A stretch of 20,000 nt of DNA, taken from an uncultured virus (IMG/VR IMGVR_UViG_3300042290_000472). Lineage: Duplodnaviria; Heunggongvirae; Uroviricota; Caudoviricetes. How positions within the stretch are numbered: the stretch's first letter is position 1; each line of letters begins with the position of its first letter. Of this stretch, positions 1 through 11,872 are shown piece by piece. A model generated the notes under the pieces. The model searched no databases. It was not told where the DNA came from and saw only the letters and a program-made list of their open reading frames with translations. The translations under genes were made by a program, and so were the position numbers. The DNA lies in the IMG/VR virus record IMGVR_UViG_3300042290_000472. One strand, written 5' to 3'.

Positions 1-754
1 CGGACTCCGGGTTCTTGGCTTGGTAGTCGATCAAGCGCCCGGTCAGGTCCAGCTTGCCCCAGCGCGTCATCACAATGATGATCGCCCCGCCCGGCATCAG
101 TCGCTGGAGCGGGCCCGTCTGGAACCAAGACCACGCAGTGTCGAAAGCCAGCCGTGAGTTGGCCTTGACGTCCTGCTCCGAGTGAGGATCGTCAATAACG
201 AACAGATCAGCACCACGACCAGCAAGAGCGCCTCCTACGCCTGCGGCGTAGTATTGGCCCCCGGCTGAAGTGCTCCACTTGCCTGCCGCTTTCTGGTCAT
301 CGGCTACCAGCGTTCGGGGGAAAAGGCCATGGTAATCCTCGTCAGCGAGCAAATTTCGCACCCGTCGGCCGAAATCTTCCGACAAACCGGCTGTGTGGGT
401 GCCCATGATGATCTTCTTCTCGGGGAAATTACCCAAAAAGAAGGCCGGAAACAGGTAAGAGCTGAATTCGGACTTGCCCATACGCGGCGCGATGTTGATG
501 ATCACCCGTTTTTTGGTTCCGGCGATCACTTCCGAGAAGATTTTGGCCAGTTTTCTGTGGTGGGGGCCTATTTTGAAGCCCGGATACACCGCTTTGGCGA
601 ACTCGATCATGTCCGACCGGGACAAGTTCTTCTGCTTGTGGGCCTGCGCCTTGTCCAGCAGCTCCAACGCCTCCAGCTTCTCGGCCGCTGTCAGCTTGCC
701 AAGGTTTTTGAACAGCGCTTGCGCTTGCTCAGGCGTCAGTGTGGCTGTTGTCAT
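1..754 (-). CDS. terL: Phage terminase large subunit, N-terminal ATPase domain (partial, runs off the left edge)
   Basis: Manual translation of the minus strand from ATG 754: MTTATLTPEQAQALFKNLGK...KRVIINIAPRMGKSEFSSYLFPAFFLG...YAAGVGGALAGRGADLFVIDDPHSEQD...AIIIVMTRWGKLDLTGRL. Contains Walker A-like PRMGKS, Walker B VIDDP and coupling motif MTRW. Absent from the supplied ORF track because there is no stop codon in the window. Confidence 0.95.
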   Translation of the reverse strand, partial: MTTATLTPEQAQALFKNLGKLTAAEKLEALELLDKAQAHKQKNLSRSDMIEFAKAVYPGFKIGPHHRKLAKIFSEVIAGTKKRVIINIAPRMGKSEFSSYLFPAFFLGNFPEKKIIMGTHTAGLSEDFGRRVRNLLADEDYHGLFPRTLVADDQKAAGKWSTSAGGQYYAAGVGGALAGRGADLFVIDDPHSEQDVKANSRLAFDTAWSWFQTGPLQRLMPGGAIIIVMTRWGKLDLTGRLIDYQAKNPES

Positions 755-1337
755 CAGGCGTTGGGGGTGTGGTGGTGATTTCGACGATGTCCGTCACGTC
801 AGCGTCGGACACATCCATGAACTTGGCCAGCTTTTCCTTGAGGCGCTTGTCGATCTCGTCCTCGGTCATGTCCGTTTTCTTGACCTCGATCTTGTCGGTG
901 AACAGCCCCACCTCCGTGACCTTGCCCAGCAGGCCGAGCGCCTTCAAGCGGATGTTGGCGTTGGCGTTGTTGGTCTCCTCGACCAGCTTGGCCACCGTGT
1001 ATCCCCGAAGTTCCTTGGCCTGCTCGATGAACTCCCAGTCGTAGGCCGTCAGCATGCCCGTGATGTGGCGCACAGCTTCCGGCGTCTTGAGCTGGACCAG
1101 CGCAGCCTTCTGCTCGGTCGTGTCGGTGTTGGTGGTCAGGGCCTGAAACGCCTTGCGTGCGTCAGCCTTCTCAAGTTCGTCAATCACTTCGTCGTCCGGG
1201 GGCACGCCCAGCTCCTGCAACCAACTGGCCGTGGTTACCTGCGCGGCCAAGACTTCTCCCGGCTCGGCGTCGGCCAGTCTCGTCATGATCCCGGGCGGTG
1301 TTGGCTCCGGGTTGAATTGCACCAAGTGTTCAAACAT
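729..1337 (-). CDS. Putative terminase small subunit
   Basis: About 202 aa from ATG 1337 (MFEHLVQFNPEP), directly upstream of and overlapping terL by 26 bp. The C-terminal IRLKALGLLGKVTEVGLFTDKIEV resembles the 'ALELLGK.lGmF.dkve' TerS tail. The start codon is inferred. Confidence 0.7.
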   Translation of the reverse strand: MFEHLVQFNPEPTPPGIMTRLADAEPGEVLAAQVTTASWLQELGVPPDDEVIDELEKADARKAFQALTTNTDTTEQKAALVQLKTPEAVRHITGMLTAYDWEFIEQAKELRGYTVAKLVEETNNANANIRLKALGLLGKVTEVGLFTDKIEVKKTDMTEDEIDKRLKEKLAKFMDVSDADVTDIVEITTTPPTPDDNSHTDA

Positions 1338-1398
1338 ATTGCGTAGGCCGTGTAACCTCGTTGCGCGTAATGTACACCTATTTTCAAAACAAGTGGTG

Positions 1399-1414
1399 TG
1401 TCCAGAGTTTGACA
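1399..1414. promoter_or_regulatory. TGTC-N8-GACA dyad upstream of terS (operator candidate)
   Basis: TGTCCAGAGTTTGACA; its reverse complement matches 8069-8084 at 14 of 16 positions. Confidence 0.4.
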
Positions 1415-1672
1415 GAGGTTCCTTGGGATTTTTTAAAAATTGGGGTAAGCCGCATTTCGTGCGCAAGGGGTGGGCGGGATTTGTCTAAGTTTTTACAAAC
1501 TGCTGGGAGCGGGTGGGAAACAGTGTTCACGCGGACTAGCCTTGTCTGCCACACAAAGGCTTGGTGGGGGGTGGGTGGGGTCGCCACACCAGAGCCCAGC
1601 CCCCGAATACCCCCTACTTTCACCCCCATCCGTACAGTAGAGGTATCGGTTAGGGAATTAGCCCGAGTCGAT

Positions 1673-1695
1673 CTGGGGAGAACGGTTCTCCCCAG
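1673..1695. repeat. 23-bp palindrome, copy 1
   Basis: CTGGGGAGAAC-G-GTTCTCCCCAG, 25 nt upstream of the ATG at 1721. Confidence 0.97.
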
Positions 1696-1720
1696 TCATC
1701 AACCTTTAGGAGAATGCAAC

Positions 1721-2161
1721 ATGAGTAAAGCAACCAACCACGTTCAGGCGTTCATCGCCATGAACACAGTAGCCTTCAATGCCGCCGCTAAGGTGTTTAG
1801 TGCCATCGAGACCCAATCCGACAAGTGGGCAGAATCCCTTGCGGAAGCGGGCATCGTAGGTCCGGACATTAAGGTTTACGCAATCATGTGGGTGTCTAAG
1901 CAGTCGGGCATTGCGCCCAAGGACGGGCAACGCGGTCTGTGCTTCGAGAAAGACAGCAAGGAAGCTAACCGGGTTAAGTATCTGGTGGCTGTCGCCACTG
2001 GCGCAGCAGCAGAGAAGGCAGCGCGGCGCGGCGCGGCGCACACACCCGTTAAGGTCAACAAGGCTAAGGTGAGCGCAATCGTAGAGCTTTGCGCCGGTTT
2101 GACCAAAGCCGAAGTGGTGGCGCTGTTGGCCGCTGCACGTGATGCCATCACATTTGAGTGA
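1721..2161 (+). CDS. Hypothetical early protein (146 aa, Ala/Lys-rich)
   Basis: AGGAG RBS then ATG 1721 (MSKATNHVQAF); bracketed by palindrome copies 1 and 2. Confidence 0.8.
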   Translation: MSKATNHVQAFIAMNTVAFNAAAKVFSAIETQSDKWAESLAEAGIVGPDIKVYAIMWVSKQSGIAPKDGQRGLCFEKDSKEANRVKYLVAVATGAAAEKAARRGAAHTPVKVNKAKVSAIVELCAGLTKAEVVALLAAARDAITFE

Positions 2162-2166
2162 CCCGA

Positions 2167-2189
2167 CTGGGGAGAACGGTTCTCCCCAG
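2167..2189. repeat. 23-bp palindrome, copy 2
   Basis: Identical core, 5 nt after the stop at 2161, followed by TTTTT. Confidence 0.97.
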
Positions 2190-2258
2190 TTTTCCCTGCA
2201 ACGGTGTCAGCATGGTGCTGGCCCGTTGTTCCTTCCCATGTCAAACCCGGAGATTCTC

Positions 2259-2444
2259 ATGCCCGAACAACTTTTATTCACTGTCCTCGTCCTACTTGAC
2301 CGCCTGCTCGACCCTGATTGCGGCGAGATCGAACACTACGAAATCGACCAAGAAATCCAGCGCTTGCAACACTTCATGCACCCCACCGACAGCGGCTACT
2401 TCCAAGCCGTCCTCGACATTGCGGCCGTCGCCAACAGCTTCTAA
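2259..2444 (+). CDS. Small acidic hypothetical protein (61 aa)
   Basis: GGAGATTCTC-ATG start; MPEQLLFTVLVLLDRLLDPD... Confidence 0.7.
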   Translation: MPEQLLFTVLVLLDRLLDPDCGEIEHYEIDQEIQRLQHFMHPTDSGYFQAVLDIAAVANSF

Positions 2445-2454
2445 GGAGATTCTC

Positions 2455-2616
2455 ATGCAATTCACCATCATCGCCCGTGACTGCGGCATCGACCGCAACT
2501 ACCCATGCAACACATACGAGGAAGCCAACTTCCTGTTCAACGCCTTGAGTCTTGCGGCTCGCCACGTTGAGTGGTGGAAGGGCGCAACCCTCGTCACCCA
2601 ATACGTCAACAACTAA
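2455..2616 (+). CDS. Small hypothetical protein (53 aa)
   Basis: Same GGAGATTCTC-ATG start context as the preceding gene; MQFTIIARDCGIDRNY... Confidence 0.7.
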   Translation: MQFTIIARDCGIDRNYPCNTYEEANFLFNALSLAARHVEWWKGATLVTQYVNN

Positions 2617-2683
2617 GGAAACTCTCTCAGCCTTGCGTGCAGGGCTGAGGGGGCAATCCTGCCCGTTAACTGGAGTATCAACC

Positions 2684-2863
2684 ATGAGCAATCGCTACAC
2701 AATCAAGACCCTGAACCTCAACCAACTGCGCGAACTGCGAGGCGAGCTGCGCCGTGATGCCGAGGCCAGCGCACGTAAGCGCAAGATGGTCGAGCAGGCC
2801 CGCACACGTGACAACGCGTGGACTGAACTCAAAGGCACTACTCGCCCTCTGCGTATTAAGTAA
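2684..2863 (+). CDS. Small basic hypothetical protein (59 aa)
   Basis: GGAG RBS, ATG 2684; MSNRYTIKTLNLNQLRELRG... Confidence 0.7.
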   Translation: MSNRYTIKTLNLNQLRELRGELRRDAEASARKRKMVEQARTRDNAWTELKGTTRPLRIK

Positions 2864-2869
2864 AACAAA

Positions 2870-2892
2870 CTGGGGAGAACGGTTCTCCCCAG
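2870..2892. repeat. 23-bp palindrome, copy 3
   Basis: Identical core, 6 nt after the stop at 2863. Confidence 0.97.
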
Positions 2893-2924
2893 TAACACGT
2901 TGTGGAAAACCCCCTAAAAAGGCA

Positions 2925-3145
2925 TACCCACCACGTCCCAGCGTTTACACCCCCAGTGCAGCGCATCTGGGCGTCCGCCAAGCCAATGTTTATGCGGTGT
3001 CCAGCGTACACCCACCTAAGCACCTATATATAAATATAAGATTTTCTCTAGATATATATATATACGTGTGCAAGTGGGTATACTTTCGTGCGTTTGTTTG
3101 GTTTGGTTAAAGCTCTTCCAAAATGCTGGGTATCGTGGGCTGGAT
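2925..3145. other. Non-coding AT-rich core with flanking imperfect repeats (candidate replication origin)
   Basis: (TA)n-rich tract 3025-3064 in otherwise GC-rich sequence, with imperfect inverted repeats on both sides. Confidence 0.4.
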
Positions 3146-3256
3146 ACCAAAGAAATGGCGTAACCACGGGGCTTCAAGCCATCCCCACCACCACGTCATC
3201 GCCCGAGAATCAGGGGGTATAATGTCCACGGGTTACACACAATCATGGAGTTTCCA

Positions 3257-3985
3257 ATGGAACACAGCGACAATTTTCACCTTGCACCTGCCCGTGCGCA
3301 CGATGGCAAGGCCCTCAAAGCAGCGGCGTTCTGCCCTGACTGTCAGACGGTCAAGCCCTTGCCCGAGTTCAAACGCTACCTCACAGGCGGGGAGCTTGCG
3401 GCCCAAGGCTACACCTCTGGCGCAAAGGTCGAGATCGAGACGGCCAAGTGCCGATCATGCAGGCCCAAGCGCAAGCCTGTGCAGAAGCTGAACACCGCTG
3501 AGCTGAAGAACCGTGCGGCCAACGGGGACATCAAACCCTACGTGGCGCAGCAGATCATGCAGGAACGCAAGAAGCGGGGGCTTGCTGCGCAGCGTGCGGG
3601 GGCCATCAAGTCCTATCTGTCCAAGGTCAAGGCCAAGTGGACGCCCATCTTGGCCGGGTTCCAAGCCGAGGCTGTGCCCGTGCGCCACCAGCTCAAGTAC
3701 GAACGCGCCCGAAACCCGGACAGCCCGTTGATGGCCTTCCTCACCGCGTACCAAACGATGCTGCAAGAGACCGCATCCCTGCTCAAGTTCCATCACATAC
3801 GCTTGAAGCCTTCGATGCCCGAGAAGGACCGACCGGACTGGCAGCAGCACGTGCCCAAGCCCCAGCGTGCGAAGCTGGAGGCCCTATGGAACGCCGTACC
3901 CATTGAGAAGCGGGTGAAGGTGCGTATGCCTGCGCTGTTCACCTACCGCATAGCGGAAGACCGGGAACATTCATCAACCTGCTGA
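3257..3985 (+). CDS. Basic hypothetical protein with an N-terminal CxxC...CxxC zinc ribbon
   Basis: CPDCQTVKPLPEF...KCRSCR; GGAG before ATG 3257 (alternative start 3245); perfect TATAAT at 3218-3223 upstream. Confidence 0.75.
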   Translation: MEHSDNFHLAPARAHDGKALKAAAFCPDCQTVKPLPEFKRYLTGGELAAQGYTSGAKVEIETAKCRSCRPKRKPVQKLNTAELKNRAANGDIKPYVAQQIMQERKKRGLAAQRAGAIKSYLSKVKAKWTPILAGFQAEAVPVRHQLKYERARNPDSPLMAFLTAYQTMLQETASLLKFHHIRLKPSMPEKDRPDWQQHVPKPQRAKLEALWNAVPIEKRVKVRMPALFTYRIAEDREHSSTC

Positions 3986-3986
3986 A

Positions 3987-4009
3987 CTGGGGAGAACGGT
4001 TCTCCCCAG
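3987..4009. repeat. 23-bp palindrome, copy 4
   Basis: Identical core, 1 nt after the stop at 3985, followed by TTTTTCTTTCT. Confidence 0.97.
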
Positions 4010-4026
4010 TTTTTCTTTCTGAATCC

Positions 4027-4045
4027 GTGAGACACCCTGTCTCAC
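4027..4045. promoter_or_regulatory. GTGAGAC-N5-GTCTCAC dyad, copy 1
   Basis: GTGAGAC-ACCCT-GTCTCAC, intergenic. Confidence 0.75.
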
Positions 4046-4092
4046 AAACCGCCGCCAGTCGGCCACTGGCAAACAACCTATGGAGAAGCAAC

Positions 4093-4530
4093 ATGAACCT
4101 CAACGATATGCCCATCACAATGGACGAACCCCAACAGCCAGCCCACGCTGTGCACCACACGCTCATCGACGCGCTGCTCAGCCAGTTCACCGCGCACATC
4201 GACATGCTGGTGGAGACCAAGTTCCACGCCATGCTGGCCAACCGCAACGCGCTCAAGCTCATGGACGAGGAGATGCACAAACAGATCGAGGCCATGATCG
4301 AGAACCGCATGCTCGACCACGAGGGCAGCAGCGATCACTTGGACGAAGCAAACGTGGAGCAGCTCGCCGCTGACACCGCACGTGAGACGCTGAAAGAGTA
4401 CGCCAGCACGCAAGAGGGCTGGGTCACCAAGGACCAAGTGCAGGACATCATCACCGAGCAGATGGACGAAGAGCTCGACAACATTGACTGGGACGAGAAG
4501 GTCAAAGACGCTATCCGTAACCTGTTGTGA
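4093..4530 (+). CDS. Acidic helical hypothetical protein (145 aa)
   Basis: GGAGAAGCAAC-ATG start; D/E-rich C-terminal half. Confidence 0.8.
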   Translation: MNLNDMPITMDEPQQPAHAVHHTLIDALLSQFTAHIDMLVETKFHAMLANRNALKLMDEEMHKQIEAMIENRMLDHEGSSDHLDEANVEQLAADTARETLKEYASTQEGWVTKDQVQDIITEQMDEELDNIDWDEKVKDAIRNLL

Positions 4531-4540
4531 GGAGATGGCC

Positions 4541-4696
4541 ATGCACCACGAGCTGGACAAGACCATCGAGTCAATTGAAAAGATCATGCGCCTCATGTGG
4601 GACATGCTGCCTGAGAAAGATCAGGCGCTGCTCGCACATGCGTATGCCTTCGCGCTGATCCGGCGCATCGCCAACAAAGGAATGGAGAGATCATGA
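4541..4696 (+). CDS. Small hypothetical protein (51 aa)
   Basis: GAGGAG RBS; stop overlaps the next ATG (ATGA). Confidence 0.65.
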   Translation: MHHELDKTIESIEKIMRLMWDMLPEKDQALLAHAYAFALIRRIANKGMERS

Positions 4697-4830
4697 AACG
4701 ATACACCGGGCCAGCAAAGCCCATCCCCACAAACGTGAGACAGCCCGTCTCACGCTACATCACGTGCGCCATCTACGTGGCGTGCATTGTCGTCCTCTTG
4801 TTGGACTTGTTTTATTGGAGAGCAGGATGA
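4693..4830 (+). CDS. Small single-pass membrane protein (45 aa)
   Basis: Manual translation MKRYTGPAKPIPTNVRQPVSRYITCAIYVACIVVLLLDLFYWRAG; GGAG RBS; ATGA overlaps at both ends. Confidence 0.65.
   Translation: MKRYTGPAKPIPTNVRQPVSRYITCAIYVACIVVLLLDLFYWRAG
4735..4753. promoter_or_regulatory. GTGAGAC-N5-GTCTCAC dyad, copy 2 (inside a small ORF)
   Basis: GTGAGAC-AGCCC-GTCTCAC. Confidence 0.7.
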
Positions 4831-5138
4831 AAACATCTGAACTGACAAGACACGCCCTTGATTGGGCGGTGCATCAAGCACGGTTTGAAGGGGCTTGCCA
4901 TGACGAGCCGTTCCCCAGTTACTCAACCGACTGGAAACATGGTGGGCCGATCGTTGAGCGTGAGAAGTTGTTCGTGAAGCCTACCATCAGCAAAGGGTGG
5001 AGAAGCTATCAGCGTGATCCGTTCGGCAACGGCATCTGCCATTCACAGTACGGCCCCACACCCCTGATCGCCGCTATGCGGTGCTACGTTGCATCCAAGC
5101 TGGGTGACGACATCAACATTCCCGAGGAGTTGAAATGA
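4827..5138 (+). CDS. DUF2591 / NinX-like phage protein
   Basis: Motifs LDWAV, YSTDWKHGGPIVERE and GPTPLIAAMRCYVASKLGD are characteristic of this family. Confidence 0.8.
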   Translation: MKTSELTRHALDWAVHQARFEGACHDEPFPSYSTDWKHGGPIVEREKLFVKPTISKGWRSYQRDPFGNGICHSQYGPTPLIAAMRCYVASKLGDDINIPEELK

Positions 5139-5437
5139 AAAGACCTAGCTTGTGGGCACTGCCCGCGCACATGAAAGCCGCACAACCCATGGCGCTGCCG
5201 ACCAAGACCATCACGATGATTGACTACGACGCAGTGCGCGAGCACTTGCAGGCGCACGGCTTCATGGTGCTGCACGTACCGGTGGAGGAGCTGCGCACCA
5301 ACAAGTGTGGTGCGGACGAGGCCCCGGATATCAAGTGCATCATCAGCGCAGCGGCCATGCGCAAGTGGCCGAAGCTCAACACGTACCGCATCGACGCCAC
5401 GCGCTGGCTTATCAAACTACAAGGAGAAAGCAAATGA
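5135..5437 (+). CDS. Hypothetical protein (100 aa)
   Basis: GAGGAG RBS; ATGA coupling to both neighbours. Confidence 0.7.
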   Translation: MKRPSLWALPAHMKAAQPMALPTKTITMIDYDAVREHLQAHGFMVLHVPVEELRTNKCGADEAPDIKCIISAAAMRKWPKLNTYRIDATRWLIKLQGESK

Positions 5438-5625
5438 ACGAAGGACAAGAGCACGAATGGCACATCGAGCTGGACTACATGCTGGCAAAGGTGCGCCACG
5501 CTGTGCAGATTCTCAATGAGAGCAACTTAAAAACACTGAGTGACGGCTACGCCATCAAAGAACTGGAGCCTGTGTTGTTCAGGCTTCAGGAGTTGTGCAA
5601 TTTAACCAAAGGAGAAAGCAAATGA
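5434..5625 (+). CDS. Hypothetical protein (63 aa)
   Basis: AAGGAGAAAGCAA-ATG start. Confidence 0.7.
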   Translation: MNEGQEHEWHIELDYMLAKVRHAVQILNESNLKTLSDGYAIKELEPVLFRLQELCNLTKGESK

Positions 5626-5894
5626 GATTCAAGATTAGATTCGGTAACGCTGAGCTGTTGCTCACAGCAGAGCAGCTCGACGCCATGGTGGCCCTTGCTG
5701 AGCAGGCAGAGACCATCGAGGAGAACTACGTGGGCAGACAAAGCGGGTACGTAGGCCACGATAACAACTACGAGTTGCGCTTCGCGCTGTTCGATACGCA
5801 GCGCAGCGCCGCAGTGCAGGTCGTGTCAACCAAGGAGCTGGACAAGTGGCACACACTCAACGCATACCGTCAACAAAAGGAGAACGAGCAATGA
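5622..5894 (+). CDS. Hypothetical protein (90 aa)
   Basis: Same AAGGAGAAAGCAA-ATG start context; MRFKIRFGNAELLLTAEQL... Confidence 0.7.
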   Translation: MRFKIRFGNAELLLTAEQLDAMVALAEQAETIEENYVGRQSGYVGHDNNYELRFALFDTQRSAAVQVVSTKELDKWHTLNAYRQQKENEQ

Positions 5895-6058
5895 AAGCGT
5901 ACACAGTACACATCCAAGCAGTCGAGTTCTACACCATCGAGGTGCAGGCCGAAGACAAAGAGCAAGCCGAGGAAAAAGCATGGCGCTTGTTCCCACACCA
6001 CAGCGCCAACTACGGCGAGAACAACGTGACTGAAATTGAGGAGCACTCAAATGACTGA
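5891..6058 (+). CDS. Small acidic protein, DpnD/PcfM-like pattern
   Basis: MKAYTVHIQAVEFYTIEVQAEDKEQAEEKA matches the 'Y.V.I......veVeAes.eeA.ekA' pattern of small phage proteins. Confidence 0.6.
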   Translation: MKAYTVHIQAVEFYTIEVQAEDKEQAEEKAWRLFPHHSANYGENNVTEIEEHSND

Positions 6059-6737
6059 AGAAACCGAAACAGAACAGACCGAGTTCAGCTACCAAGAACT
6101 CAGCCAACGCGCCAAGGACAAGGCGTTGCAGTGGTTCAGCGAATCGCTGGACCACGAGTGGTGGGACGGTGTGTACGAGAACGCCAAAGCAGACGGGCCT
6201 GAACGTGGCTTCGAGATTGACGACATACGCTTCTCAGGCTTCTGGTCACAAGGTGATGGCGCATCGTGGACAGGCAGCGTGCGCATCAAAGAGTTCCTTG
6301 ACTACCACCTCAAGGAAGATCACCCCGACTTCGGCCGCTACTTCATACTGCAAGCCATCCTCAACGAGGGGTACGACTGGGTCGAGCGCTACACCAACGT
6401 CAACCGCAGTGGCTTCCACTACGTGCACGACAACATGATGCGCCTTGAGAGCATCAGCTACAGTAACCTCGAATGCCTCGACGAGGACGATGAAGAGCGC
6501 TTGCAAGAGGAAGGCCCGCTGCAACGTGCGAACATCTACCAACTGTACAAGGGCGCAGACATCGACCACCTGATCGACGACCTTGAGACGTGGATACTCG
6601 AAGAGGCGCAGGCCTACGCACGCCAGATATACGACGACCTTGAGTCCGAGCACGAGCACCTCACCAGTGAGGAGTCACTGATCGAAGCCGCCGAAGCCAA
6701 CGGCTGGATGTTCGACGAGGATGGAGCGCTTGTATGA
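6051..6737 (+). CDS. Highly acidic protein of the family commonly annotated 'antitoxin of toxin-antitoxin stability system' in mobile elements
   Basis: Motifs ELSQRAKDKALQW, FSGFWSQGDGASW and YDDLESEHEHLTSEE...EANGWMFDEDG; about 56 of 228 residues are D/E by manual count. Confidence 0.7.
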   Translation: MTEETETEQTEFSYQELSQRAKDKALQWFSESLDHEWWDGVYENAKADGPERGFEIDDIRFSGFWSQGDGASWTGSVRIKEFLDYHLKEDHPDFGRYFILQAILNEGYDWVERYTNVNRSGFHYVHDNMMRLESISYSNLECLDEDDEERLQEEGPLQRANIYQLYKGADIDHLIDDLETWILEEAQAYARQIYDDLESEHEHLTSEESLIEAAEANGWMFDEDGALV

Positions 6738-7009
6738 CACCGGACGAGTGGGTCTTGGTCGCGCCGACCATCTTGACGGTAGCGGGTCTGGAGTTCACTG
6801 TACACAACCACGGCGAACACATCATCGTGTACAACATAGACCGGCACGGCCGCAGGCACGAGTACCACCTGTGGCCCACCACAGGTACGTGGCGACACAA
6901 ACCCCCGGGAAACGAATGGGGTACTGGGACCAACCACACCCATATCAGGAAAAAGTTCGGCGGTGTGCGCGGTCTCGTGCGCTACATACAAGAAGTTCTT
7001 ACCGAGTAA
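6734..7009 (+). CDS. Hypothetical protein (91 aa)
   Basis: GGAG RBS, ATGA overlap with the upstream gene. Confidence 0.65.
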   Translation: MTPDEWVLVAPTILTVAGLEFTVHNHGEHIIVYNIDRHGRRHEYHLWPTTGTWRHKPPGNEWGTGTNHTHIRKKFGGVRGLVRYIQEVLTE

Positions 7010-7015
7010 TCAACC

Positions 7016-7034
7016 GTGAGACATGTCGTCTCAC
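7016..7034. promoter_or_regulatory. GTGAGAC-N5-GTCTCAC dyad, copy 3
   Basis: GTGAGAC-ATGTC-GTCTCAC, in the gap between the stop at 7009 and the RBS of the gene at 7056. Confidence 0.75.
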
Positions 7035-7055
7035 ACAACACTAGGAGAAGCAACC

Positions 7056-8021
7056 ATGTTTTCATCATCCATACACACGCTGCCCAACGTCACCACGTGG
7101 GAGTCAGCGCACAACACGTTCAACAACACGCCGCGCCCAAAAGGCCCACGCAGCACACAGAAGTGGAACGACAACCAACGCCCGCTCAAGGACAACCGCT
7201 CGTGGCACTACCGCATCGAGCGCATCAACGGGGGCGAGCACTACGACGTGTGCCTGCACCACACAGTGATGGCACGCTACTACAAACCAACAGCAGACGG
7301 GCGGCGCGTGCTGTACACCGGGCACCCCTCCAACATGAGCAAACAGTTCATGCGCCACGTGCTCAATGTGCGCCATCAAAACACGTGGATGACGACGGAC
7401 GGGCGCACTGTGGCAGTGCCTATCGCCAACAGAGACAGCATCCCAGACAAAGGCTCCTCGTTCAGCGCTGACCTGTGGCTGGTTAAGCATGAGGTGCTCT
7501 ACGGCCTGCGCCTCGACGTGGCCAAGTCATCGCACACAACACACTACGTCAAGCGCATGAGCCCCGACGACAGAGCCACGCACAAGCGGGCACGGGCCAA
7601 CATGGAGAACCTCATTACGCTGGCCTGCATGCGCATACCCGAATTTCTTGGGCGTGTGTATCTCGACTACGACTTGCTCGAACCGTTCCAAGGGGTTGAC
7701 GTAGGTTATGCCGAGCGTGCCGCGTTAGATTCGCTTGCATCAGGACAGTTCGCCGCACTCAAGCCGGAGTCACAAGAAAGGCACATCGCTGAGTTCATGC
7801 GACTGGCCGAGGATGTGTTCGACTACGAGGCGGTCAAGGTGGCGGAGCGATACCCCAACGACTCCATACTGGAACACGTTACAGAGAAGGTTCTGGCTGA
7901 CGCGTTGTGGAGAATAGCCAAGCGAGAGTGCAGCGTCCTCAAGCGCAAGTCCGACGCTATCCAACTGGCCCCGTTCATGGACGTGAAAGACTTCCCCAAC
8001 ACAGCCACGCCCTACCCCTGA
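7056..8021 (+). CDS. Hypothetical phage protein (321 aa)
   Basis: AGGAGAAGCAACC-ATG start; long ORF with no recognisable motif. Confidence 0.8.
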   Translation: MFSSSIHTLPNVTTWESAHNTFNNTPRPKGPRSTQKWNDNQRPLKDNRSWHYRIERINGGEHYDVCLHHTVMARYYKPTADGRRVLYTGHPSNMSKQFMRHVLNVRHQNTWMTTDGRTVAVPIANRDSIPDKGSSFSADLWLVKHEVLYGLRLDVAKSSHTTHYVKRMSPDDRATHKRARANMENLITLACMRIPEFLGRVYLDYDLLEPFQGVDVGYAERAALDSLASGQFAALKPESQERHIAEFMRLAEDVFDYEAVKVAERYPNDSILEHVTEKVLADALWRIAKRECSVLKRKSDAIQLAPFMDVKDFPNTATPYP

Positions 8022-8067
8022 CGTGTCAGGGAGAGAAGGAACATTCATCAATCTTTTTGCAAAGGAG

Positions 8068-8097
8068 TTGTCAAACAATGGACAAATGAGATACAAT
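8068..8097 (+). promoter_or_regulatory. Sigma70-type promoter for the AAA/vWA operon
   Basis: TTGTCA (8068-8073), 18-nt spacer, TACAAT (8092-8097), in an AT-rich intergenic gap. Confidence 0.65.
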
Positions 8098-8105
8098 ATC
8101 AAAAA

Positions 8106-8128
8106 CTGGGGAGAACGGTTCTCCCCAG
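8106..8128. repeat. 23-bp palindrome, copy 5
   Basis: Identical core, immediately downstream of the predicted transcription start. Confidence 0.97.
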
Positions 8129-8169
8129 TAACCTCTCAATTTTTCTTTCATCACTAGGAGTTCTTAATC

Positions 8170-9294
8170 ATGAACAAAATGCTTTCTTTCACTCAAGTCC
8201 TCAACCTCATCGCCGCTGTTGGCGACAAGCGCACCGTCATCGTCGAGGGCGAGAACGGCATAGGCAAGACCGCGCTGTTCCACGCGCTCAAGAAGCACCC
8301 CAAGTTCGCTGGCCACATCGCAGTTGACCCTGTCGATTGCACACAGCTCTCCGATGGTTCTGTGTGGATGCCTGACCTCGACCGCGAGAACGGCGTGTCA
8401 CGTGAGTTGCCAAACGAGCGCTTCGGTGTATCGCGCACCAATCAGATGGGTGTCAACGATGCCAAGCCAATCATGGTGTTCCTCGACGAGATCGCCAAGG
8501 CTCCGCAGTTCATCAAGAACGTGCTGGCCCCGATCATCTACGAGCGCCGCGTTGGCAACTACCACATGCCCGAGGGTAGCGTGGTGTTCTGTGCAACCAA
8601 CTTGGCTGTTGAGGGTCTTGGCGATAGCATTCAGGCGCACCTGCGCAACCGTCTCGTGTTCGTCAAGATGCGCAAGCCTACCGCTGGCGAGTGGGTGCAG
8701 TGGGCCATCGACAAGGGCGTCAACGCTTCGGTGATTGCATTCGTCAACAGCTACGCTCAGGTCATGGACTCGTTCCTCGACTACGAGAAGGGCGGCAAGC
8801 ACGAGGGCAAGGATCAGTCCAAGGACAACGGCTACATCTTCAATCCTCGCTCGATGGCACTGGCATATGCTACGCCGCGCAGCTTGGTTGCAGCGGGTGA
8901 CGTGCTCGATGCTGGTGACGGTGTGCTCGACGATGACACGCTTGAGGCTGCGTTGATCGGTACGCTGGGTGCCACGACTGCTGAGGCGCTGTCTTCATTC
9001 GTACGCTTTGGCCGTGACATCTGCTCACTCGAACGTGTGCTCAAAGACCCTGCGACTGCGCCGCTGGCCGACAACCCCACTGCGCAGCTTGTGCAGGTGT
9101 TCCAGTTCGTCTCACGCGTTGACAAGCGCGACGATGCGGCCAAGGTTGTTGAGTACGTGCTGCGCATGCGCACAGAGATGCAGTCGATCTTCTGCAACAG
9201 CGTGGCCAACTCGTCCAACATTGCGCACTATGTGTCGTTGACGAACTTCGGTTCGCTCTTGGCATCGCACAAGATTTTCTTCAGCACGAAGTAA
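8170..9294 (+). CDS. MoxR-like AAA+ ATPase
   Basis: Walker A GENGIGKT, Walker B VFLDE, sensor-1 ATN, arginine finger LRNR, sensor-2-like TPRS. Confidence 0.9.
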   Translation: MNKMLSFTQVLNLIAAVGDKRTVIVEGENGIGKTALFHALKKHPKFAGHIAVDPVDCTQLSDGSVWMPDLDRENGVSRELPNERFGVSRTNQMGVNDAKPIMVFLDEIAKAPQFIKNVLAPIIYERRVGNYHMPEGSVVFCATNLAVEGLGDSIQAHLRNRLVFVKMRKPTAGEWVQWAIDKGVNASVIAFVNSYAQVMDSFLDYEKGGKHEGKDQSKDNGYIFNPRSMALAYATPRSLVAAGDVLDAGDGVLDDDTLEAALIGTLGATTAEALSSFVRFGRDICSLERVLKDPATAPLADNPTAQLVQVFQFVSRVDKRDDAAKVVEYVLRMRTEMQSIFCNSVANSSNIAHYVSLTNFGSLLASHKIFFSTK

Positions 9295-9297
9295 GTC

Positions 9298-9624
9298 ATG
9301 AGCACAGTACGCGCAATGAACAAGTACGACTATGTGGATGTGGACATAGACGTCAGCAAGCTGCTGCGTACCCCGAAAGGGGCGCTGCGGCTCGACGCTA
9401 AAGCGGCGTACAAGGAGGGGTGGGCAATGCTCTCCGTGTACGGCTTCTGGCACCCCACGGTGTTGGCCGGAAGGCACGGCATCGCGCAGCGCACCATCTT
9501 GCACCGCATGTTCGTGCCGCGTGACACGCCCAAGGCGGAGAAGCACCGCATGCTGCGAACCATGTGCGATCTGTTTGCTGTGAAGCACGGCACTGAGTAC
9601 GCACTGAGGAGCAAGCTGAAATGA
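9298..9624 (+). CDS. Hypothetical basic protein
   Basis: Fills the operon gap; ATGA overlap with the next gene; start uncertain (9298 or 9316). Confidence 0.6.
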   Translation: MSTVRAMNKYDYVDVDIDVSKLLRTPKGALRLDAKAAYKEGWAMLSVYGFWHPTVLAGRHGIAQRTILHRMFVPRDTPKAEKHRMLRTMCDLFAVKHGTEYALRSKLK

Positions 9625-9974
9625 CAGCACGTTACGACAAGTCGCAGAACATCAACCTGTTTTGCCGTAACGCTGACGGCGAGATCGTGATCGTGTCCAA
9701 GGTGTGGCTGACCGCATCGAAGGGCAAGGCAGCTGTCTCGCTGTATGCAGGGCGCGGCATCAAGGACAAGGCCCTGCGCCTTGTTCACCGTGAGTTCTTC
9801 GACAAGGCCACGCACACCAAGGACATGGTGATCGCAGCACGTGACACCGTCGCGTTCTTGTGGGCCATGCACTTCGGTGTGTCTGACTTTGTCGTGATCC
9901 ACCACGAACCAAAGATGTCGGAGCTTTACCATCCGACCGAACTGAACCTTAAACAACAGGAGAAGCAACCATGA
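9621..9974 (+). CDS. Hypothetical protein (117 aa)
   Basis: GAGGAG upstream; ATGA overlaps at both ends. Confidence 0.65.
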   Translation: MTARYDKSQNINLFCRNADGEIVIVSKVWLTASKGKAAVSLYAGRGIKDKALRLVHREFFDKATHTKDMVIAARDTVAFLWAMHFGVSDFVVIHHEPKMSELYHPTELNLKQQEKQP

Positions 9975-11155
9975 GCTTTGACAAACTTACCCCCAACCAG
10001 AAAATCCAAGCGTGCAACATCGACGTGATGCGTCACCACAAGTTCGCGCTGCTGTCCGGCATCGTGTGCATGGGCAAGTCCGAGGCATGTGATGACATGC
10101 CCACTGCTGCAACCAACGGCAAGGACAAGCTGTACGGCACAGCGTTCATCAGTGACCTGACACGCAAGGAGCTGCGCTTCGTTGTGCTGCACGAGAACTT
10201 CCACGTGGCGCTCAAGCACTGCGTCTTGCCAGCGTACATTGGGTACAGCAAGCGCTTCGGTCCGCAGATCAACAACGCGGCCATGGACTACGTGGTCAAC
10301 GGCCTGATCGACGAGCTTGACCCTGAGCGCAAGTTCATGGATTTCCCCGCCAAGATCAAGATTCTGTTCGACGAGAAGTTCAAGGGCATGTCGTACCCGC
10401 AGGTGCTGCAAGAGTTGCTCAAGGATGCCGACGAACAGCCGCAGGCCATGGACGACCACCAGATGAACGGCGAGGGTGGTGGTGACCCCATGACACCCGA
10501 GGAGTCCGAGAAGCTGGGCAAGATGGTCGACGATGCCAACCGCCAAGGCGAGTTGCTTGTGCGCAAGATGCGTGGCGATAAAGAGGGTGGCCGTGACATC
10601 CTTGGCACAGCGCAGGAGCGCGTGACCAACTGGCGTGATGCGTTGCAGGACTTCATCAGTTCTGTGTGCGTTGGCGACGAGAACTCACGCTTTTGCCCAC
10701 CCAACAAGCGCTTGCTTGCGTCCGGCTTCATCATGCCTTCGCACTTCGACGAGAACATTGGCGAGATCGTCATTGCGTGCGACACGTCAGGCTCCATGCA
10801 CTGGGCGTACCCTGTTGTGTTCGGTGAAGTGGCGCGTATCGTGCAGAACACACGACCAGACAGCGTGCGCATGTTGTGGTGGGACACGGAGGTGTGCGGC
10901 GATCAGGTGTTCAAGCCCGAGCAGTACCAAGACATTGCCACGCAGCTTGCACCCAAGGGCGGTGGCGGCACCGTTGTGTCGTGTGTTGCTGACTACGTGG
11001 CCGAGCACAAGATCAAGGCCAAGGCTGTCATCATGCTGACCGATGGCTACATCGAGTCCGACTACCGCATGACCGACATGCCGACCTTGTGGGGTGTCGT
11101 GGACAACGAAGACTTCATGCCACGCGCAGGCAAGGTGTTGAGGATTCGTCCATGA
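9971..11155 (+). CDS. DUF2201-type putative metallopeptidase with a vWA domain
   Basis: N-terminal TAATNG and HENFH (HExxH); C-terminal MIDAS elements DTSGS, GGGGT and LTDG. Confidence 0.9.
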   Translation: MSFDKLTPNQKIQACNIDVMRHHKFALLSGIVCMGKSEACDDMPTAATNGKDKLYGTAFISDLTRKELRFVVLHENFHVALKHCVLPAYIGYSKRFGPQINNAAMDYVVNGLIDELDPERKFMDFPAKIKILFDEKFKGMSYPQVLQELLKDADEQPQAMDDHQMNGEGGGDPMTPEESEKLGKMVDDANRQGELLVRKMRGDKEGGRDILGTAQERVTNWRDALQDFISSVCVGDENSRFCPPNKRLLASGFIMPSHFDENIGEIVIACDTSGSMHWAYPVVFGEVARIVQNTRPDSVRMLWWDTEVCGDQVFKPEQYQDIATQLAPKGGGGTVVSCVADYVAEHKIKAKAVIMLTDGYIESDYRMTDMPTLWGVVDNEDFMPRAGKVLRIRP

Positions 11156-11860: not shown

Positions 11861-11872
11861 GGAGAACCAACC

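What the first reader, a model, noticed from the sequence alone, without database searches (positions are those of the whole stretch)
1673..8128. Five identical 23-bp palindromes partition the phage early region into gene blocks
Seen: CTGGGGAGAAC-G-GTTCTCCCCAG occurs without a single mismatch at 1673, 2167, 2870, 3987 and 8106. It is always intergenic and always has the central G on the + strand; I saw no copy in the remaining 12 kb. Three copies start 1-6 nt after a stop codon, one lies 25 nt before a start, and one lies just after a predicted sigma70 transcription start. Only two have a 3' T-run, so ordinary terminators do not explain them, and terminators do not usually keep exact identity. 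Inference: a dedicated system acting on the first-expressed genes. Options are dispersed operators or roadblocks for a phage dimeric regulator, RNA hairpins for processing or stabilisation, extruded DNA hairpins, or recombination sites that shuffle early gene cassettes.
Basis: partly seen in the sequence, partly recalled or inferred. Interest (0 to 1): 0.85.

Follow-up and report, generated by a model that had tools for sequence, protein, structure and literature searches.

The report
Phage early hairpins matched to protein
Five identical palindromes in a lake phage's early genes belong to a family of stem-loops placed right after stop codons, and their sequence changes together with the phage's first early protein, which points to a matched protein-hairpin switch for early gene expression.

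Summary
CTGGGGAGAACGGTTCTCCCCAG occurs five times without mismatch (1673, 2167, 2870, 3987, 8106), where chance gives none. Independent lake metagenome contigs span the copies.

It is not peculiar to this genome. In a large uncultured phage clade, each genome carries its own stem-loop family in the 3-6 kb beside the terminase genes. These families are mostly intergenic and sit a median of 4 nt after a stop codon.

The stem forms 10-13 pairs, about -18 to -20 kcal/mol. Between relatives it changes by two-sided swaps at the same sites. The copy after the first early gene is a conserved intrinsic terminator.

Stem type follows the N-terminal domain of that first protein (1721-2161; basic, predicted dimer, no known family). 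It does not follow the terminase, the protein's own C-terminal part, or the interspersed early genes.

My best reading (0.4) is a matched protein-hairpin pair that controls read-through of the early operon. Rivals are passive terminators homogenised by recombination (0.25) and DNA operators or roadblocks (0.2). Nothing here shows binding.

The parts
1673..1695 (+). Copy 1 of the 23-bp palindrome. It lies in the leader of the first early gene, 25 nt before its ATG, and has no T-run on either side.
   Evidence: stem of 10 pairs plus 2, -18.3 kcal/mol
1721..2161 (+). gp1, the first early gene (146 aa). It is basic, belongs to no known family and is predicted to form a homodimer through residues 3-94. 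Its N-terminal domain co-varies with the hairpin type.
2167..2189 (+). Copy 2, directly after the gp1 stop and followed by TTTTCCC. It is an intrinsic terminator or attenuator, and the site is conserved across the clade.
2626..2649 (+). Single hairpin of unrelated sequence (11 pairs, one of them U.G), starting 10 nt after the stop of 2455-2616.
2870..2892 (+). Copy 3, after the stop of 2684-2863. An A-run lies upstream (a T-run on the - strand); there is no T-run on +.
3020..3070 (.). AT-rich TATATA element between copy 3 and gene 3257. Relatives have similar elements at the same place. It may be a promoter cluster or an origin.
   Evidence: the Rfam match there is far below threshold
3987..4009 (+). 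Copy 4, starting 2 nt after the stop of 3257-3985 and followed by TTTTTCTTTCT. It has the best terminator form of the five.
   Evidence: 13 pairs
4027..4045 (+). Second hairpin family, GTGAGACA-ccc-TGTCTCAC, 17 nt after copy 4.
4734..4754 (+). Second-family hairpin, after the stop of 4541-4696.
   Evidence: -12.7 kcal/mol, z -4.8
7016..7034 (+). Second-family hairpin, after the stop of 6734-7009 and before the repeated leader GGAGAAGCAAC.
8068..8097 (+). Sigma70-like promoter (TTGTCA, 18 nt, TACAAT), conserved in the relative G007.
8106..8128 (+). Copy 5, at or within a few bases of the predicted transcript start of the ATPase operon. In G007 a different hairpin sits at the same place between conserved flanks.

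Best explanation
The five palindromes are this phage's version of a stem-loop element that a whole clade of uncultured freshwater phages places in the early operon. The element sits just after early promoters and, mostly, within a few bases after the stop codons of the first small genes.

Transcribed on the + strand, it folds into a stem of 10-13 pairs with a CGG loop. The copies at 2167 and 3987 carry a U-tract and act as intrinsic terminators or attenuators. The first of these shuts the operon right after gene 1.

I propose that the stem sequence is read by gp1 (1721-2161), a basic dimer. Its N-terminal domain sets which stem it recognises. Once gp1 has accumulated, it changes what RNA polymerase does at these hairpins, most likely allowing read-through into the later early genes. 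In logic this resembles lambda N with its nut hairpins, or LicT with its RAT hairpin; both comparisons are recalled.

This requirement would keep all copies in a genome alike and make them change together with gp1.

Shown here: the positions, the fold, the conserved terminator after gp1, the two-sided swaps between relatives, and the co-variation with the gp1 N-terminal domain.

Inferred: that gp1 binds the element, that the target is RNA rather than DNA, and that the effect is read-through rather than stronger termination or RNA stabilisation.
For: Anatomy:
- There are 5 exact copies against 0 expected.
- The RNA folds at -18.3 to -19.9 kcal/mol per copy.
- T-runs follow 2167 and 3987.

The clade as a whole (80 terminase-selected loci plus 5 others, using my own hairpin and gene finders):
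- Hairpin families of 3 or more copies are intergenic in 73 of 87 cases, where 11% of the DNA is non-coding.
- 62 of those 73 lie between co-directional genes. The median distance from the stop is 4 nt and to the next start 56 nt.
- Families are confined to 3.3-6 kb of contigs of 34-61 kb, including one complete 61 kb genome.

The site right after gp1:
- 43 of 52 distinct relatives have a hairpin there, 17 of them with a T-run.
- Other early stops give 130 of 418 hairpins and 9 T-runs. Stops more than 7 kb downstream give 12 of 103 and 1.
- On 28 distinct relatives, 83.1% of cells are paired against 58.9% when shuffled.
- 66 cells changed on both sides against 22.3, and the covariation score is 0.645 against 0.208 (0 of 500 shuffles reach it; slid controls 0.10-0.17).

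Swaps at fixed sites between conserved flanks:
- In the window versus L003, sites 2167, 2870 and 3987 carry CTTGCGGACA-type palindromes of the same size.
- In the window versus G007, the same holds at 8106.

Co-variation with gp1:
- Pairs with 50% or more identity in the N-terminal domain share the hairpin type in 35 of 40 cases; other pairs in 169 of 863.
- With terminase at 88% or more but a dissimilar N-terminal domain, the figure is 8 of 29.
- With a similar C-terminal part but a dissimilar N-terminal domain, it is 4 of 18; with the reverse, 23 of 28.
- With another early gene shared but a dissimilar N-terminal domain, it is 6 of 25. With a similar N-terminal domain and no other early gene shared, it is 27 of 31.
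- 5 of 6 N-terminal-domain clusters have a uniform hairpin type although each spans 2-4 terminase clusters.
- In all 7 terminase clusters that hold 2 or more N-terminal-domain clusters, the hairpin type splits with that domain.

gp1 itself:
- It is the first early gene in 53 of 85 sources.
- Its median pI is 9.7, range 8.8-10.5.
- The AlphaFold2 model has pLDDT 82.7.
- The homodimer score is 0.59 against a best control of 0.00. That mark was reached by 20 of 30 proteins solved as pairs of one chain and by 1 of 23 solved as single chains. The runs agree in at least 85% of contacts and the partner pLDDT is at least 76.

RNA level:
- In intergenic hairpins between + genes, single interior mismatches are G.U on the sense strand in 17 cases and on the antisense strand in 3. 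Inside genes the counts are 36 and 36.
Against: - No binding was tested. The gp1 fold matches nothing clearly: the best Foldseek E-value is 0.88, the best VIA Z is 5.0, and there is no Pfam family.
- The family-type hairpins themselves show no strand bias. G.U is 10 on sense versus 9 on antisense under loose criteria, and about 3 versus 3 among the strict cases by my reading of the list.
- In hairpins between - strand genes the bias is 4 to 0 in the wrong direction.
- Only 12 of 63 family hairpins have a sense T-run, so most copies cannot terminate on their own.
- One protein does not explain the second families in the same genomes: GTGAGAC three times in the window, and a third type twice in G007, one of them at the 8106 site.
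- In L003 the copy before gp1 is of the window's type while gp1 and the three later sites are of the other type.
- One N-terminal-domain cluster of 5 members is mixed.
- The pairs counted are not phylogenetically independent. I estimate roughly 5-10 independent switches.
- The 'same type' rule is loose, with about 20% background matches.
- The centres of the hairpins were chosen by folding, which leans towards pairing.
- A symmetric dimer would fit a duplex DNA palindrome at least as well as an RNA hairpin.
Confidence: 0.4

Rival explanations
1. The hairpins are passive RNA elements with no dedicated protein. They serve as terminators or attenuators and as hairpins that protect the 5' and 3' ends of mRNA. 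Copies are kept alike within a genome because recombination and gene conversion between copies, and between co-infecting relatives, homogenise them, as proposed for the stem-loop part of T4-type PeSL cassettes. On this view gp1 co-varies only because it travels with neighbouring hairpins.
For: - T-runs and the conserved terminator after gp1.
- The 8106 copy sits at the predicted 5' end of a transcript.
- G.U falls on the sense strand in 17 cases versus 3 in intergenic hairpins generally.
- Several unrelated hairpin families coexist in one genome.
- Arm variants assort freely at the outer pair 3-21 in G004: G-C twice, C-G twice, C-C twice and G-G once. This looks like crossing-over at the palindrome centre.
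- The region is mosaic, with gene gains and losses.
- PeSLs are described as promoter plus poly-G/poly-C stem-loops among early ORFans (PMC2839356, abstract and section 13 read; PMC4122927, abstract read).
Against: - Linkage does not explain why hairpin type follows the gp1 N-terminal domain across a C-terminal part with a different history (23 of 28 against 4 of 18).
- It also does not explain why hairpin type ignores early genes that lie between the hairpins (6 of 25).
- In G007 and L003 the other-type hairpin after gp1 is an island between window-like sequence on both sides.
- In the GCGGACA and GGGTCA clades my hairpin listing shows no same-type hairpin before gp1, so hitch-hiking with an upstream copy fails there.
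Confidence: 0.25
2. The elements are DNA-level operators or roadblocks. The gp1 dimer binds the duplex 23-bp palindrome. Copies just after promoters (8106 and perhaps 1673) repress initiation, and copies after genes block elongation, like the stoperators of Cluster A mycobacteriophages, whose repressors and sites also co-evolve.
For: - The palindrome is perfect and two-fold symmetric, and gp1 is a basic protein predicted to form a symmetric dimer (score 0.59 against a best control of 0.00; pI).
- gp1 and the hairpin type co-vary.
- Arm spacing is constant within each family while the centre letters vary freely.
- The family-type hairpins show no G.U strand bias.
- The weak top Foldseek rows are winged-helix regulators (E 0.88-2, probability about 0.1).
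- Stoperators are numerous repressor sites that stop elongation (PMC9283540, abstract seen in the listing; PMC6550527, title and start of abstract seen).
Against: - Between families, every one of the inner 7 stem positions changes while staying complementary (93% or more paired). A dimer that contacts a few bases per half-site would not require this.
- The site after gp1 carries a T-run in 17 of 43 hairpins, which is an RNA-level terminator signal.
- The tight anchoring to stop codons (median 4 nt) is typical of 3'-end RNA elements.
- The fold search gives no significant DNA-binding fold.
- Unlike stoperators, the sites are symmetric and confined to a few kb.
Confidence: 0.2
3. The palindromes are recombination sites or small mobile hairpin elements (like integron attC, REP/RAYT or PeSL mini-circles) that move early gene cassettes.
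For: - The region consists of small, variable genes of one orientation, each followed by a palindrome.
- Hybrid arm combinations occur in G004.
- A lake variant contig joins the window at 5421 right after a foreign-type hairpin (loose ends).
- L003 switches parent about 12 nt before copy 4.
Against: - Neither family scan of the 30 window ORFs I submitted (PHROGs and Pfam) found an integrase, a RAYT or an IS200-type gene.
- The element is 23 bp and lacks the attC layout; that layout is recalled.
- The two gene gains or losses seen between the window and L003 are bounded by repeated ribosome-binding leaders, not by the palindromes.
- The motif has 0 matches in 185,579 species genomes.
- This reading does not explain the link with gp1.
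Confidence: 0.07
4. The hairpins are promoters for an injected phage RNA polymerase, as in N4.
For: - Every copy lies upstream of a gene.
- No sigma70-like site was found before gp1.
- A complete relative encodes a 2461-aa protein among virion and ejection genes.
Against: - That protein has only an LPD38 polyvalent-protein domain and no match to any solved polymerase.
- The hairpins are anchored to the upstream stop, not to the downstream start.
- T-runs follow the hairpin after gp1.
- The stems are about twice as long as I recall for N4 promoters.
Confidence: 0.03

Closest known systems
Lambda N protein with its nut (boxB) hairpins in lambdoid phages (recalled; no paper on this point was read here)
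   Same: - The first early gene encodes a small basic factor.
- A hairpin lies in its own leader and just after a second early promoter.
- A terminator follows the gene.
- Factor and hairpin differ between related phages and change together.
   Different: - gp1 has no sequence or fold likeness to N and no arginine-rich N-terminus.
- gp1 is a predicted dimer.
- Here the recognised stem is the terminator stem itself, and it recurs 4-8 times.
- No boxA-like partner was looked for.
PeSL cassettes of T4-type phages (PMC2839356, abstract and section 13 read; PMC4122927, abstract read)
   Same: - Both are repeated intergenic stem-loops with G-runs then C-runs, placed among small variable early genes between a stop codon and the next ribosome-binding site.
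- The PeSL stem-loop was shown in that paper to act as a terminator.
- One PeSL subclass has the stem-loop just after the -10 box, as at 8106.
- Both are linked to mosaic gene content.
   Different: - PeSLs are defined by a strong sigma70 promoter. Here only 1 of 5 copies has one.
- Copies here are strictly identical within a genome, and their type is tied to a protein.
- The breakpoints seen here lie at repeated leaders rather than at the hairpins.
- The phage lineage is unrelated.
Stoperators and immunity repressors of Cluster A mycobacteriophages (PMC9283540, PMC6550527; listings only)
   Same: - Many dispersed intergenic sites are read by one phage protein.
- The sites and the protein co-evolve.
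- The effect is on elongating polymerase.
   Different: - By the title and abstract in the listing, stoperators are asymmetric, bound by a monomer and spread across the genome. That they are 13 bp long is recalled.
- The elements here are perfect 23-bp palindromes confined to 3-6 kb, and some carry U-tracts.
RNase III sites between phage T7 early genes, and REP elements of enterobacteria (both recalled)
   Same: - Both are structured RNA elements that punctuate polycistronic transcripts and protect 3' ends.
- REPs close to stop codons affect the upstream gene.
   Different: - The stems here are too short for RNase III as I recall its needs.
- No RAYT-type gene was found, and there are no host copies.
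- T7 sites are not identical to each other.

Membership tests
Intrinsic (Rho-independent) terminator | G+C-rich stem-loop in the transcript | tested here: met
   All 5 copies fold to 10-13 pairs at -18.3 to -19.9 kcal/mol.
Intrinsic (Rho-independent) terminator | U-tract directly after the stem on the sense strand | tested here: inconclusive
   Met at 2167 and 3987; not met at 1673, 2870 and 8106. Clade-wide, 12 of 63 family hairpins have one. At the site after gp1, 17 of 43 hairpins have one.
Intrinsic (Rho-independent) terminator | RNA 3' ends at the site | not testable with these tools
   The only RNA run found holds contigs of a relative at 90-95% likeness, and contigs cannot show ends.
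PeSL (T4-type promoter-early stem-loop) | Sigma70-type early promoter joined to the stem-loop | tested here: not met
   Only the 8106 copy has a promoter-like site (8068-8097). The scan found 4 sites in 20 kb against 6.3 expected, and none lies beside the other four copies.
PeSL (T4-type promoter-early stem-loop) | Lies in a hyper-variable region of small genes, with gains and losses bounded by the elements | tested here: inconclusive
   The region is variable: many window genes between 2259 and 7009 have a match in only 1-3 of the 85 sources, the window counted. However, the two gains or losses against L003 are bounded by repeated leaders. One parent switch lies about 12 nt before copy 4.
N/nut-type antitermination | Factor and hairpin form matched pairs that differ between relatives | tested here: met
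   Searches show co-variation only; no binding was tested.
N/nut-type antitermination | Factor is homologous to N (arginine-rich motif) | tested here: not met
   No Pfam family in 53 members. All 120 listed relatives are unnamed or named hypothetical protein. No arginine-rich N-terminus is seen in the sequence.
N/nut-type antitermination | Hairpin lies just downstream of early promoters | tested here: inconclusive
   Met at 8106. No promoter-like site was found before 1673.
Stoperator/repressor system | Asymmetric short site spread over the whole genome | tested here: not met
   The site is a symmetric 23-mer. All copies lie within 3.3-6 kb of contigs of 34-61 kb.
Stoperator/repressor system | DNA-binding (helix-turn-helix) repressor | tested here: inconclusive
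   The best Foldseek rows are winged-helix regulators, but at E 0.88 or worse. The best VIA Z is 5.0.
Integron attC or REP/RAYT element | Cognate recombinase or transposase gene, and copies in host genomes | tested here: not met
   No such gene among the 30 window ORFs I scanned. The motif has 0 matches in one genome each of 185,579 species.
N4-type hairpin promoter | Virion RNA polymerase encoded by the phage | tested here: inconclusive
   The window's own genome is not held. In the complete relative G012, the only giant protein (2461 aa) has an LPD38 domain, no PHROG match and no match to a solved structure.

The most novel reading that the evidence does not exclude
gp1 founds an undescribed family of phage proteins. 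Its N-terminal domain would read the sequence of a terminator-type hairpin, giving a natural set of at least ten mutually distinct protein-hairpin pairs. Examples of the stems are GGGAGAAC, GCGGACA, GGGTCAC, GGGGACA, TTTGGGACA, CAGACA, GGGGGTA, GTGCAGAA and GTTGACA. These pairs would time the early operon of an abundant freshwater phage clade. When a phage acquires a new N-terminal domain, its hairpins would be replaced one by one to match.
Probability: 0.4. Interest if true: 0.8.

Novelty: new variant of a known kind. Interest (0 to 1): 0.62.

Why it matters
If the pairing is real, an uncultured but very common lake phage group would control its first genes with a matched protein-hairpin code that has diversified many times. 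The group has more than 600 terminase relatives in one viral collection, and this phage is present in at least 23 lake runs.

That would matter in three ways:
- It would be a new example of how early gene timing is set without any known antiterminator or repressor family.
- It would be a natural case of a regulator and its many sites changing specificity together.
- It would offer a ready set of orthogonal protein-hairpin pairs for controlling read-through in engineered operons.

If the passive reading is right, the finding is still a clear case of concerted evolution of terminators in a phage, but an ordinary one.

Tried and rejected
- The window's own genome is not held, so there was no genome-wide count. 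I used the near-identical G001 and larger relatives instead.
- Megablast of the window against named phages found nothing.
- The nearest named phages are far off. Terminase identity is 45-52% (DSL-LC04, Planktothrix phage Pag-Yong1, Pelagibacter phages HTVC027P and HTVC023P). Polymerase identity is 30-33%.
- DSL-LC04 and HTVC027P have a different gene layout beside the terminase, so they are no model for this element.
- The DSL-LC04 paper has no occurrence of palindrom-, terminator or repeat in its main text (PMC10611076, term search only).
- Rfam gave one far sub-threshold match in the AT-rich stretch (29 bits against a gathering score of 100), which I rejected as chance.
- Fold searches for gp1 gave nothing clear. 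The protein atlas gave only unnamed viral clusters.
- A global rank correlation between a crude 7-letter arm distance and protein identities was weak for all proteins. I replaced it with categorical and cluster counts.
- I tested whether the hairpin arm recurs inside the gp1 coding sequence, which could mean RNA-RNA pairing. It does in 10 of 37 loci. Several of these look like mis-called starts, four belong to one clade, and the window has none, so I did not pursue it.
- RNA run X24 carries only relative-level contigs, which are no evidence of transcription or of ends.
- Literature searches for the same phenomenon listed nothing that describes genome-specific hairpin families tied to a protein in this or another phage group. 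These were word searches of open-access text only.
- I did not use the metagenome-contig scan.

Full report
**1. Observation**

The 23-mer CTGGGGAGAACGGTTCTCCCCAG occurs on the + strand at 1673, 2167, 2870, 3987 and 8106 without mismatch. No further copy with up to 3 mismatches occurs in the 20 kb, and none appeared in 200 shuffles.

The window is phage DNA. It holds:
- the N-terminal part of a large terminase subunit on the - strand (2-754);
- a + strand block with a NinX-like protein, an ATPase, a VWA/DUF2201 protein, DUF3150, DUF3310, a family A DNA polymerase and a PD-(D/E)XK nuclease.

With a small gene finder of my own, all genes from 1721 onwards are on +. Copy 1 ends 25 nt before the first early gene (gp1, 1721-2161). 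Copies 2-4 start 2-7 nt after the last base of a stop codon. Copy 5 starts 9 nt after the -10 box of the only sigma70-like + strand site of the early region.

T-runs follow copies 2 and 4. Copies 3 and 5 have A-runs upstream instead. Each copy folds as RNA into 10-13 pairs with a CGG loop, at -18.3 to -19.9 kcal/mol.

The phage is a lake-water virus. Twenty-three runs hold 96% or more of the sampled words of 1400-8400. Contigs from other samples run through the copies: X21 covers 1400-7880 and X22 covers 1830-4092. The repeats are therefore not an assembly artefact.

A 99% identical contig (G001) that extends about 16 kb past the window has only copy 5.

A second family, GTGAGAC-N3-5-GTCTCAC, sits at 4027, 4734 and 7016, and single hairpins sit at 2626 and 8016.

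**2. Relatives**

The window's own genome is not held, and named phages are distant. IMG/VR, however, holds many relatives.

The exact motif occurs in 6 contigs. One very diverged relative (G004; terminase about 44% identical) has 7 copies in 3 kb with variants. These include a C-G swap at pair 3-21, G.U pairs, and unpaired hybrids C-C and G-G.

A close relative is the most telling. L003 is 98% identical over window 1-1738 and 85-100% identical over 2461-4575.
- It keeps copy 1.
- At the places of copies 2, 3 and 4 it carries a different palindrome of the same size: GCGGACAA-G-TTGTCCGC, CTTGCGGACAA-C-TTGTCCGCAAG and CTTGCGGACA-TTT-TGTCCGCAAG.
- The gene between copies 3 and 4 stays 99% identical.

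G007 has terminase 98% and ATPase 99% identical to the window.
- It has the GCGGACA type at sites 2-4 and at one extra cassette.
- At site 5 it has a third type, CGGGAACAC-G-GTGTTCCCG, between flanks that are otherwise nearly identical to the window, promoter included.

Two other relatives show single compensatory steps from the window's stem:
- L018 has CTGGGGGGAAC-N-GTTCCCCCCAG, where pair 7-17 changed from A-T to G-C.
- L024 has CTCGGGGGAAT-N-ATTCCCCYGAG, where pair 11-13 changed from C-G to T-A, and pair 4-20 is seen as G-C, G-T and A-T.

**3. A clade-wide habit**

A search with the terminase fragment found at least 600 relatives and returned the best 80 loci. I analysed these plus five others with my own hairpin finder.
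- Hairpin families of 3 or more copies are intergenic in 73 of 87 cases. Singleton hairpins are intergenic in 266 of 1223 cases, and 11% of the DNA is non-coding.
- Of the 73, 62 lie between co-directional genes. The median gap from the upstream stop is 4 nt and to the next start 56 nt. A sense T-run follows 12 of 63, and an antisense one 8 of 63.
- Each genome has its own stem, for example GGCAGACA, CGGGTCAC, GGGGAAA, GTGCAGAA, TGGGGGTA, TTTGGGACA or GTTGACA.
- In large contigs all copies lie in a few kb beside the terminase genes. G008 has 6 in 3.6 of 48.7 kb, the complete genome G012 has 4 in 4 of 61 kb, and G010 has 5 in 3.3 of 58.7 kb.
- The window motif is absent from one genome each of 185,579 prokaryote species. 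It is therefore not a host repeat.

**4. The site after gp1 is a terminator**

gp1 homologues are found in 53 of 85 sources and are always the first gene of the + block. I defined this site by position alone, as the 46-51 nt from the gp1 stop.
- 37 of 52 distinct sequences fold at -12 kcal/mol or better.
- 43 of 52 have a hairpin of 6 or more pairs starting within about 16 nt of the stop, and 17 of these are followed by a T-run.
- For comparison, other early stops give 130 of 418 hairpins and 9 T-runs. Stops more than 7 kb downstream give 12 of 103 and 1. The - strand stops give 72 of 378 and 7.

I aligned 28 distinct 23-mers at this site.
- 83.1% of cells pair, against 58.9% in shuffles.
- 9 of 10 pairs show changes on both sides.
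- 66 cells changed on both sides, against 22.3.
- The covariation score is 0.645 against 0.208 (0 of 500 shuffles reach it; slid controls 0.10-0.17).
- The inner seven pairs are paired in 93% or more of sequences, and the outer three in about half.
- One caveat applies: the centres were chosen by folding.

**5. The link with gp1**

Comparison of gp1 across the first relatives gave the lead.
- The window and G007 have near-identical backbones, but the gp1 N-terminal domain is 32-37% identical.
- L018 (terminase 75%) has 79% identity in that domain, and G004 (terminase 44%) has 52-53%.
- The hairpin type goes with that domain.

I then classed all pairs among 43 loci that have a gp1, a terminase fragment and a hairpin after gp1:

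| Pair class | Pairs sharing the hairpin type |
|---|---|
| N-terminal domain 50% or more identical | 35 of 40 |
| N-terminal domain below 50% | 169 of 863 |
| Terminase 88% or more, N-terminal domain dissimilar | 8 of 29 |
| C-terminal part similar, N-terminal domain dissimilar | 4 of 18 |
| N-terminal domain similar, C-terminal part dissimilar | 23 of 28 |

The last two rows matter because the C-terminal part lies between the N-terminal domain and the hairpin.

As a control for linkage, I looked at pairs that share another early gene within 3.5 kb but have a dissimilar N-terminal domain. They share the type in 6 of 25 cases. Pairs with a similar N-terminal domain and no other shared early gene share it in 27 of 31.

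By clusters:
- 5 of 6 N-terminal-domain clusters are uniform in hairpin type although each spans 2-4 terminase clusters; one cluster of 5 is mixed.
- In all 7 terminase clusters that contain 2 or more N-terminal-domain clusters, the type splits with that domain.
- The largest such cluster has 10 members, 5 N-terminal-domain clusters and 5 hairpin types.

In G007 and L003 the GCGGACA hairpin after gp1 is an island between a window-like C-terminal coding part and a downstream flank that is 100% window-like.

In several clades my hairpin listing shows no same-type hairpin before gp1. Hitch-hiking with an upstream copy therefore cannot explain the link.

The pairs are not independent. I estimate 5-10 independent switches.

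**6. What gp1 is**

- It is basic: median pI 9.7 (range 8.8-10.5), and 9.3 for the window's copy.
- It belongs to no Pfam family.
- The profile search found 140 relatives at E of 0.001 or less; the 120 listed are all unnamed or called hypothetical. The atlas gives only unnamed viral clusters.
- The AlphaFold2 model (pLDDT 82.7) is helical with one beta hairpin at residues 67-74.
- It has no significant match. The best Foldseek E-value is 0.88; the top weak rows are MarR and LysR winged-helix regulators. The best VIA Z is 5.0.
- Two copies are predicted to pair symmetrically through residues 3-94. The score is 0.59 against a best control of 0.00. That mark was reached by 20 of 30 proteins solved as pairs of one chain and by 1 of 23 solved as single chains. 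The runs agree in at least 85% of contacts and the pLDDT is at least 76.
- This supports a dimer but does not show one.

**7. RNA or DNA?**

For RNA:
- The T-runs.
- The anchoring to stop codons.
- Complementarity is kept at every inner stem position across unrelated stems.
- Among intergenic hairpins between + genes with one interior mismatch, G.U falls on the sense strand 17 times and on the antisense strand 3 times. Inside genes the counts are 36 and 36.

Against RNA, or for DNA:
- The family-type hairpins themselves show no such bias (10 versus 9; about 3 versus 3 in the strict list).
- Hairpins between - strand genes show 4 to 0 in the wrong direction.
- Spacing between arms is constant within a family.
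- A symmetric dimer suits a duplex palindrome.

I leave this open and lean towards RNA.

**8. Mechanism proposed**

Early transcription makes gp1 and stops or is attenuated at the terminator right after it. gp1 then recognises the genome's own stem, both in the terminators and in the promoter-proximal copies, and changes read-through of the early operon.

The need for every copy to match gp1 explains two things: identity within a genome, and joint replacement when the N-terminal domain is exchanged.

The steps shown and inferred are marked in the Best explanation section. The rivals are:
- passive terminators and end-protecting hairpins homogenised by recombination (PeSL-like; PMC2839356, abstract and section 13 read; PMC4122927, abstract read);
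- duplex operators or roadblocks (stoperator-like; listings of PMC9283540 and PMC6550527);
- recombination sites or mobile hairpins;
- N4-like promoters.

**9. Novelty**

Each ingredient has precedents: terminator hairpins, matched factor-hairpin pairs in lambdoid phages (recalled), co-evolving repressor and stoperator sets, and PeSL cassettes. The combination is what my word searches did not find in print (open-access text only). That combination is:
- a new protein family whose N-terminal domain tracks a terminator-type stem;
- a stem repeated 4-8 times in a few kb;
- occurrence across a large uncultured freshwater clade.

I rate it a new variant of a known kind. Its interest depends on a simple binding test.

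Noticed in passing
window 4027-4045, 4734-4754, 7016-7034: A second family of intergenic hairpins (GTGAGAC-N3-5-GTCTCAC) lies in the same early region. The first copy sits 17 nt after palindrome copy 4. The same stem word occurs as a family in relatives L034 and L035.
   Followed up: partly
window 4082, 7044, 9959, 15470 and 2249/2445: Identical ribosome-binding leaders recur before several genes: GGAGAAGCAAC four times and GGAGATTCTCATG twice. The window's gene 2259-2444 is missing from L003, and the gap is bounded by the second leader. An extra gene in L003 is bounded by the first leader.
   Followed up: partly
window 3020-3070: An AT-rich TATATA stretch lies in the 364-nt gap before gene 3257, is 100% conserved in L003, and has look-alikes at the same place in L018, L073, L056 and G004. 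It may be a promoter cluster or a replication origin. A sub-threshold Rfam microRNA match there is chance.
   Followed up: no
window 3257-3985: This 242-aa protein has two CxxC pairs (CPDC and CRSC) and a very basic middle part, and has no family match. Weak homologues (23-32% identity to the window protein) were found in 12 other of the 85 sources. It is 99% conserved between the window and L003 although the hairpins flanking it differ.
   Followed up: partly
window 1645-1672, and the same place in G007, L018, L029, L061, L069: Another hairpin-like element (ATCGGTTAGGGA... with its complement) lies just upstream of copy 1. Its sequence is conserved across relatives with different gp1 clades. 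It may belong to the unknown earliest promoter or leader. No sigma70-like site was found before gp1.
   Followed up: no
window 3964-3977 and 8038-8051; 1696 and 3971: Short exact repeats occur at gene ends: GGAACATTCATCAA twice and TCATCAACC twice. The parent switch in L003 falls right after the first GGAACATTCATCAA.
   Followed up: no
window 8170-12751: An ATPase (PHROG 1297), a DUF2201 metallopeptidase-like plus VWA protein, and a DUF3150 protein form a conserved block, 94-99% identical to G007 and 56-82% identical to more distant relatives. Its role in this phage group is unknown.
   Followed up: no
relative G012 (L107:2744-10129, - strand): The complete 61 kb relative encodes a 2461-aa protein among ejection and virion genes. 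It has only an LPD38 (large polyvalent protein) domain and no PHROG or solved-structure match.
   Followed up: partly
loose ends at window 1658, 4020 and 5421: Contigs of other samples leave the window's sequence next to hairpins of foreign types (GGGGACA, TTCCCCAAG, CGGGTCAC-A-GTGACCCG). This shows that co-occurring variants differ in cassette content beside hairpins.
   Followed up: no
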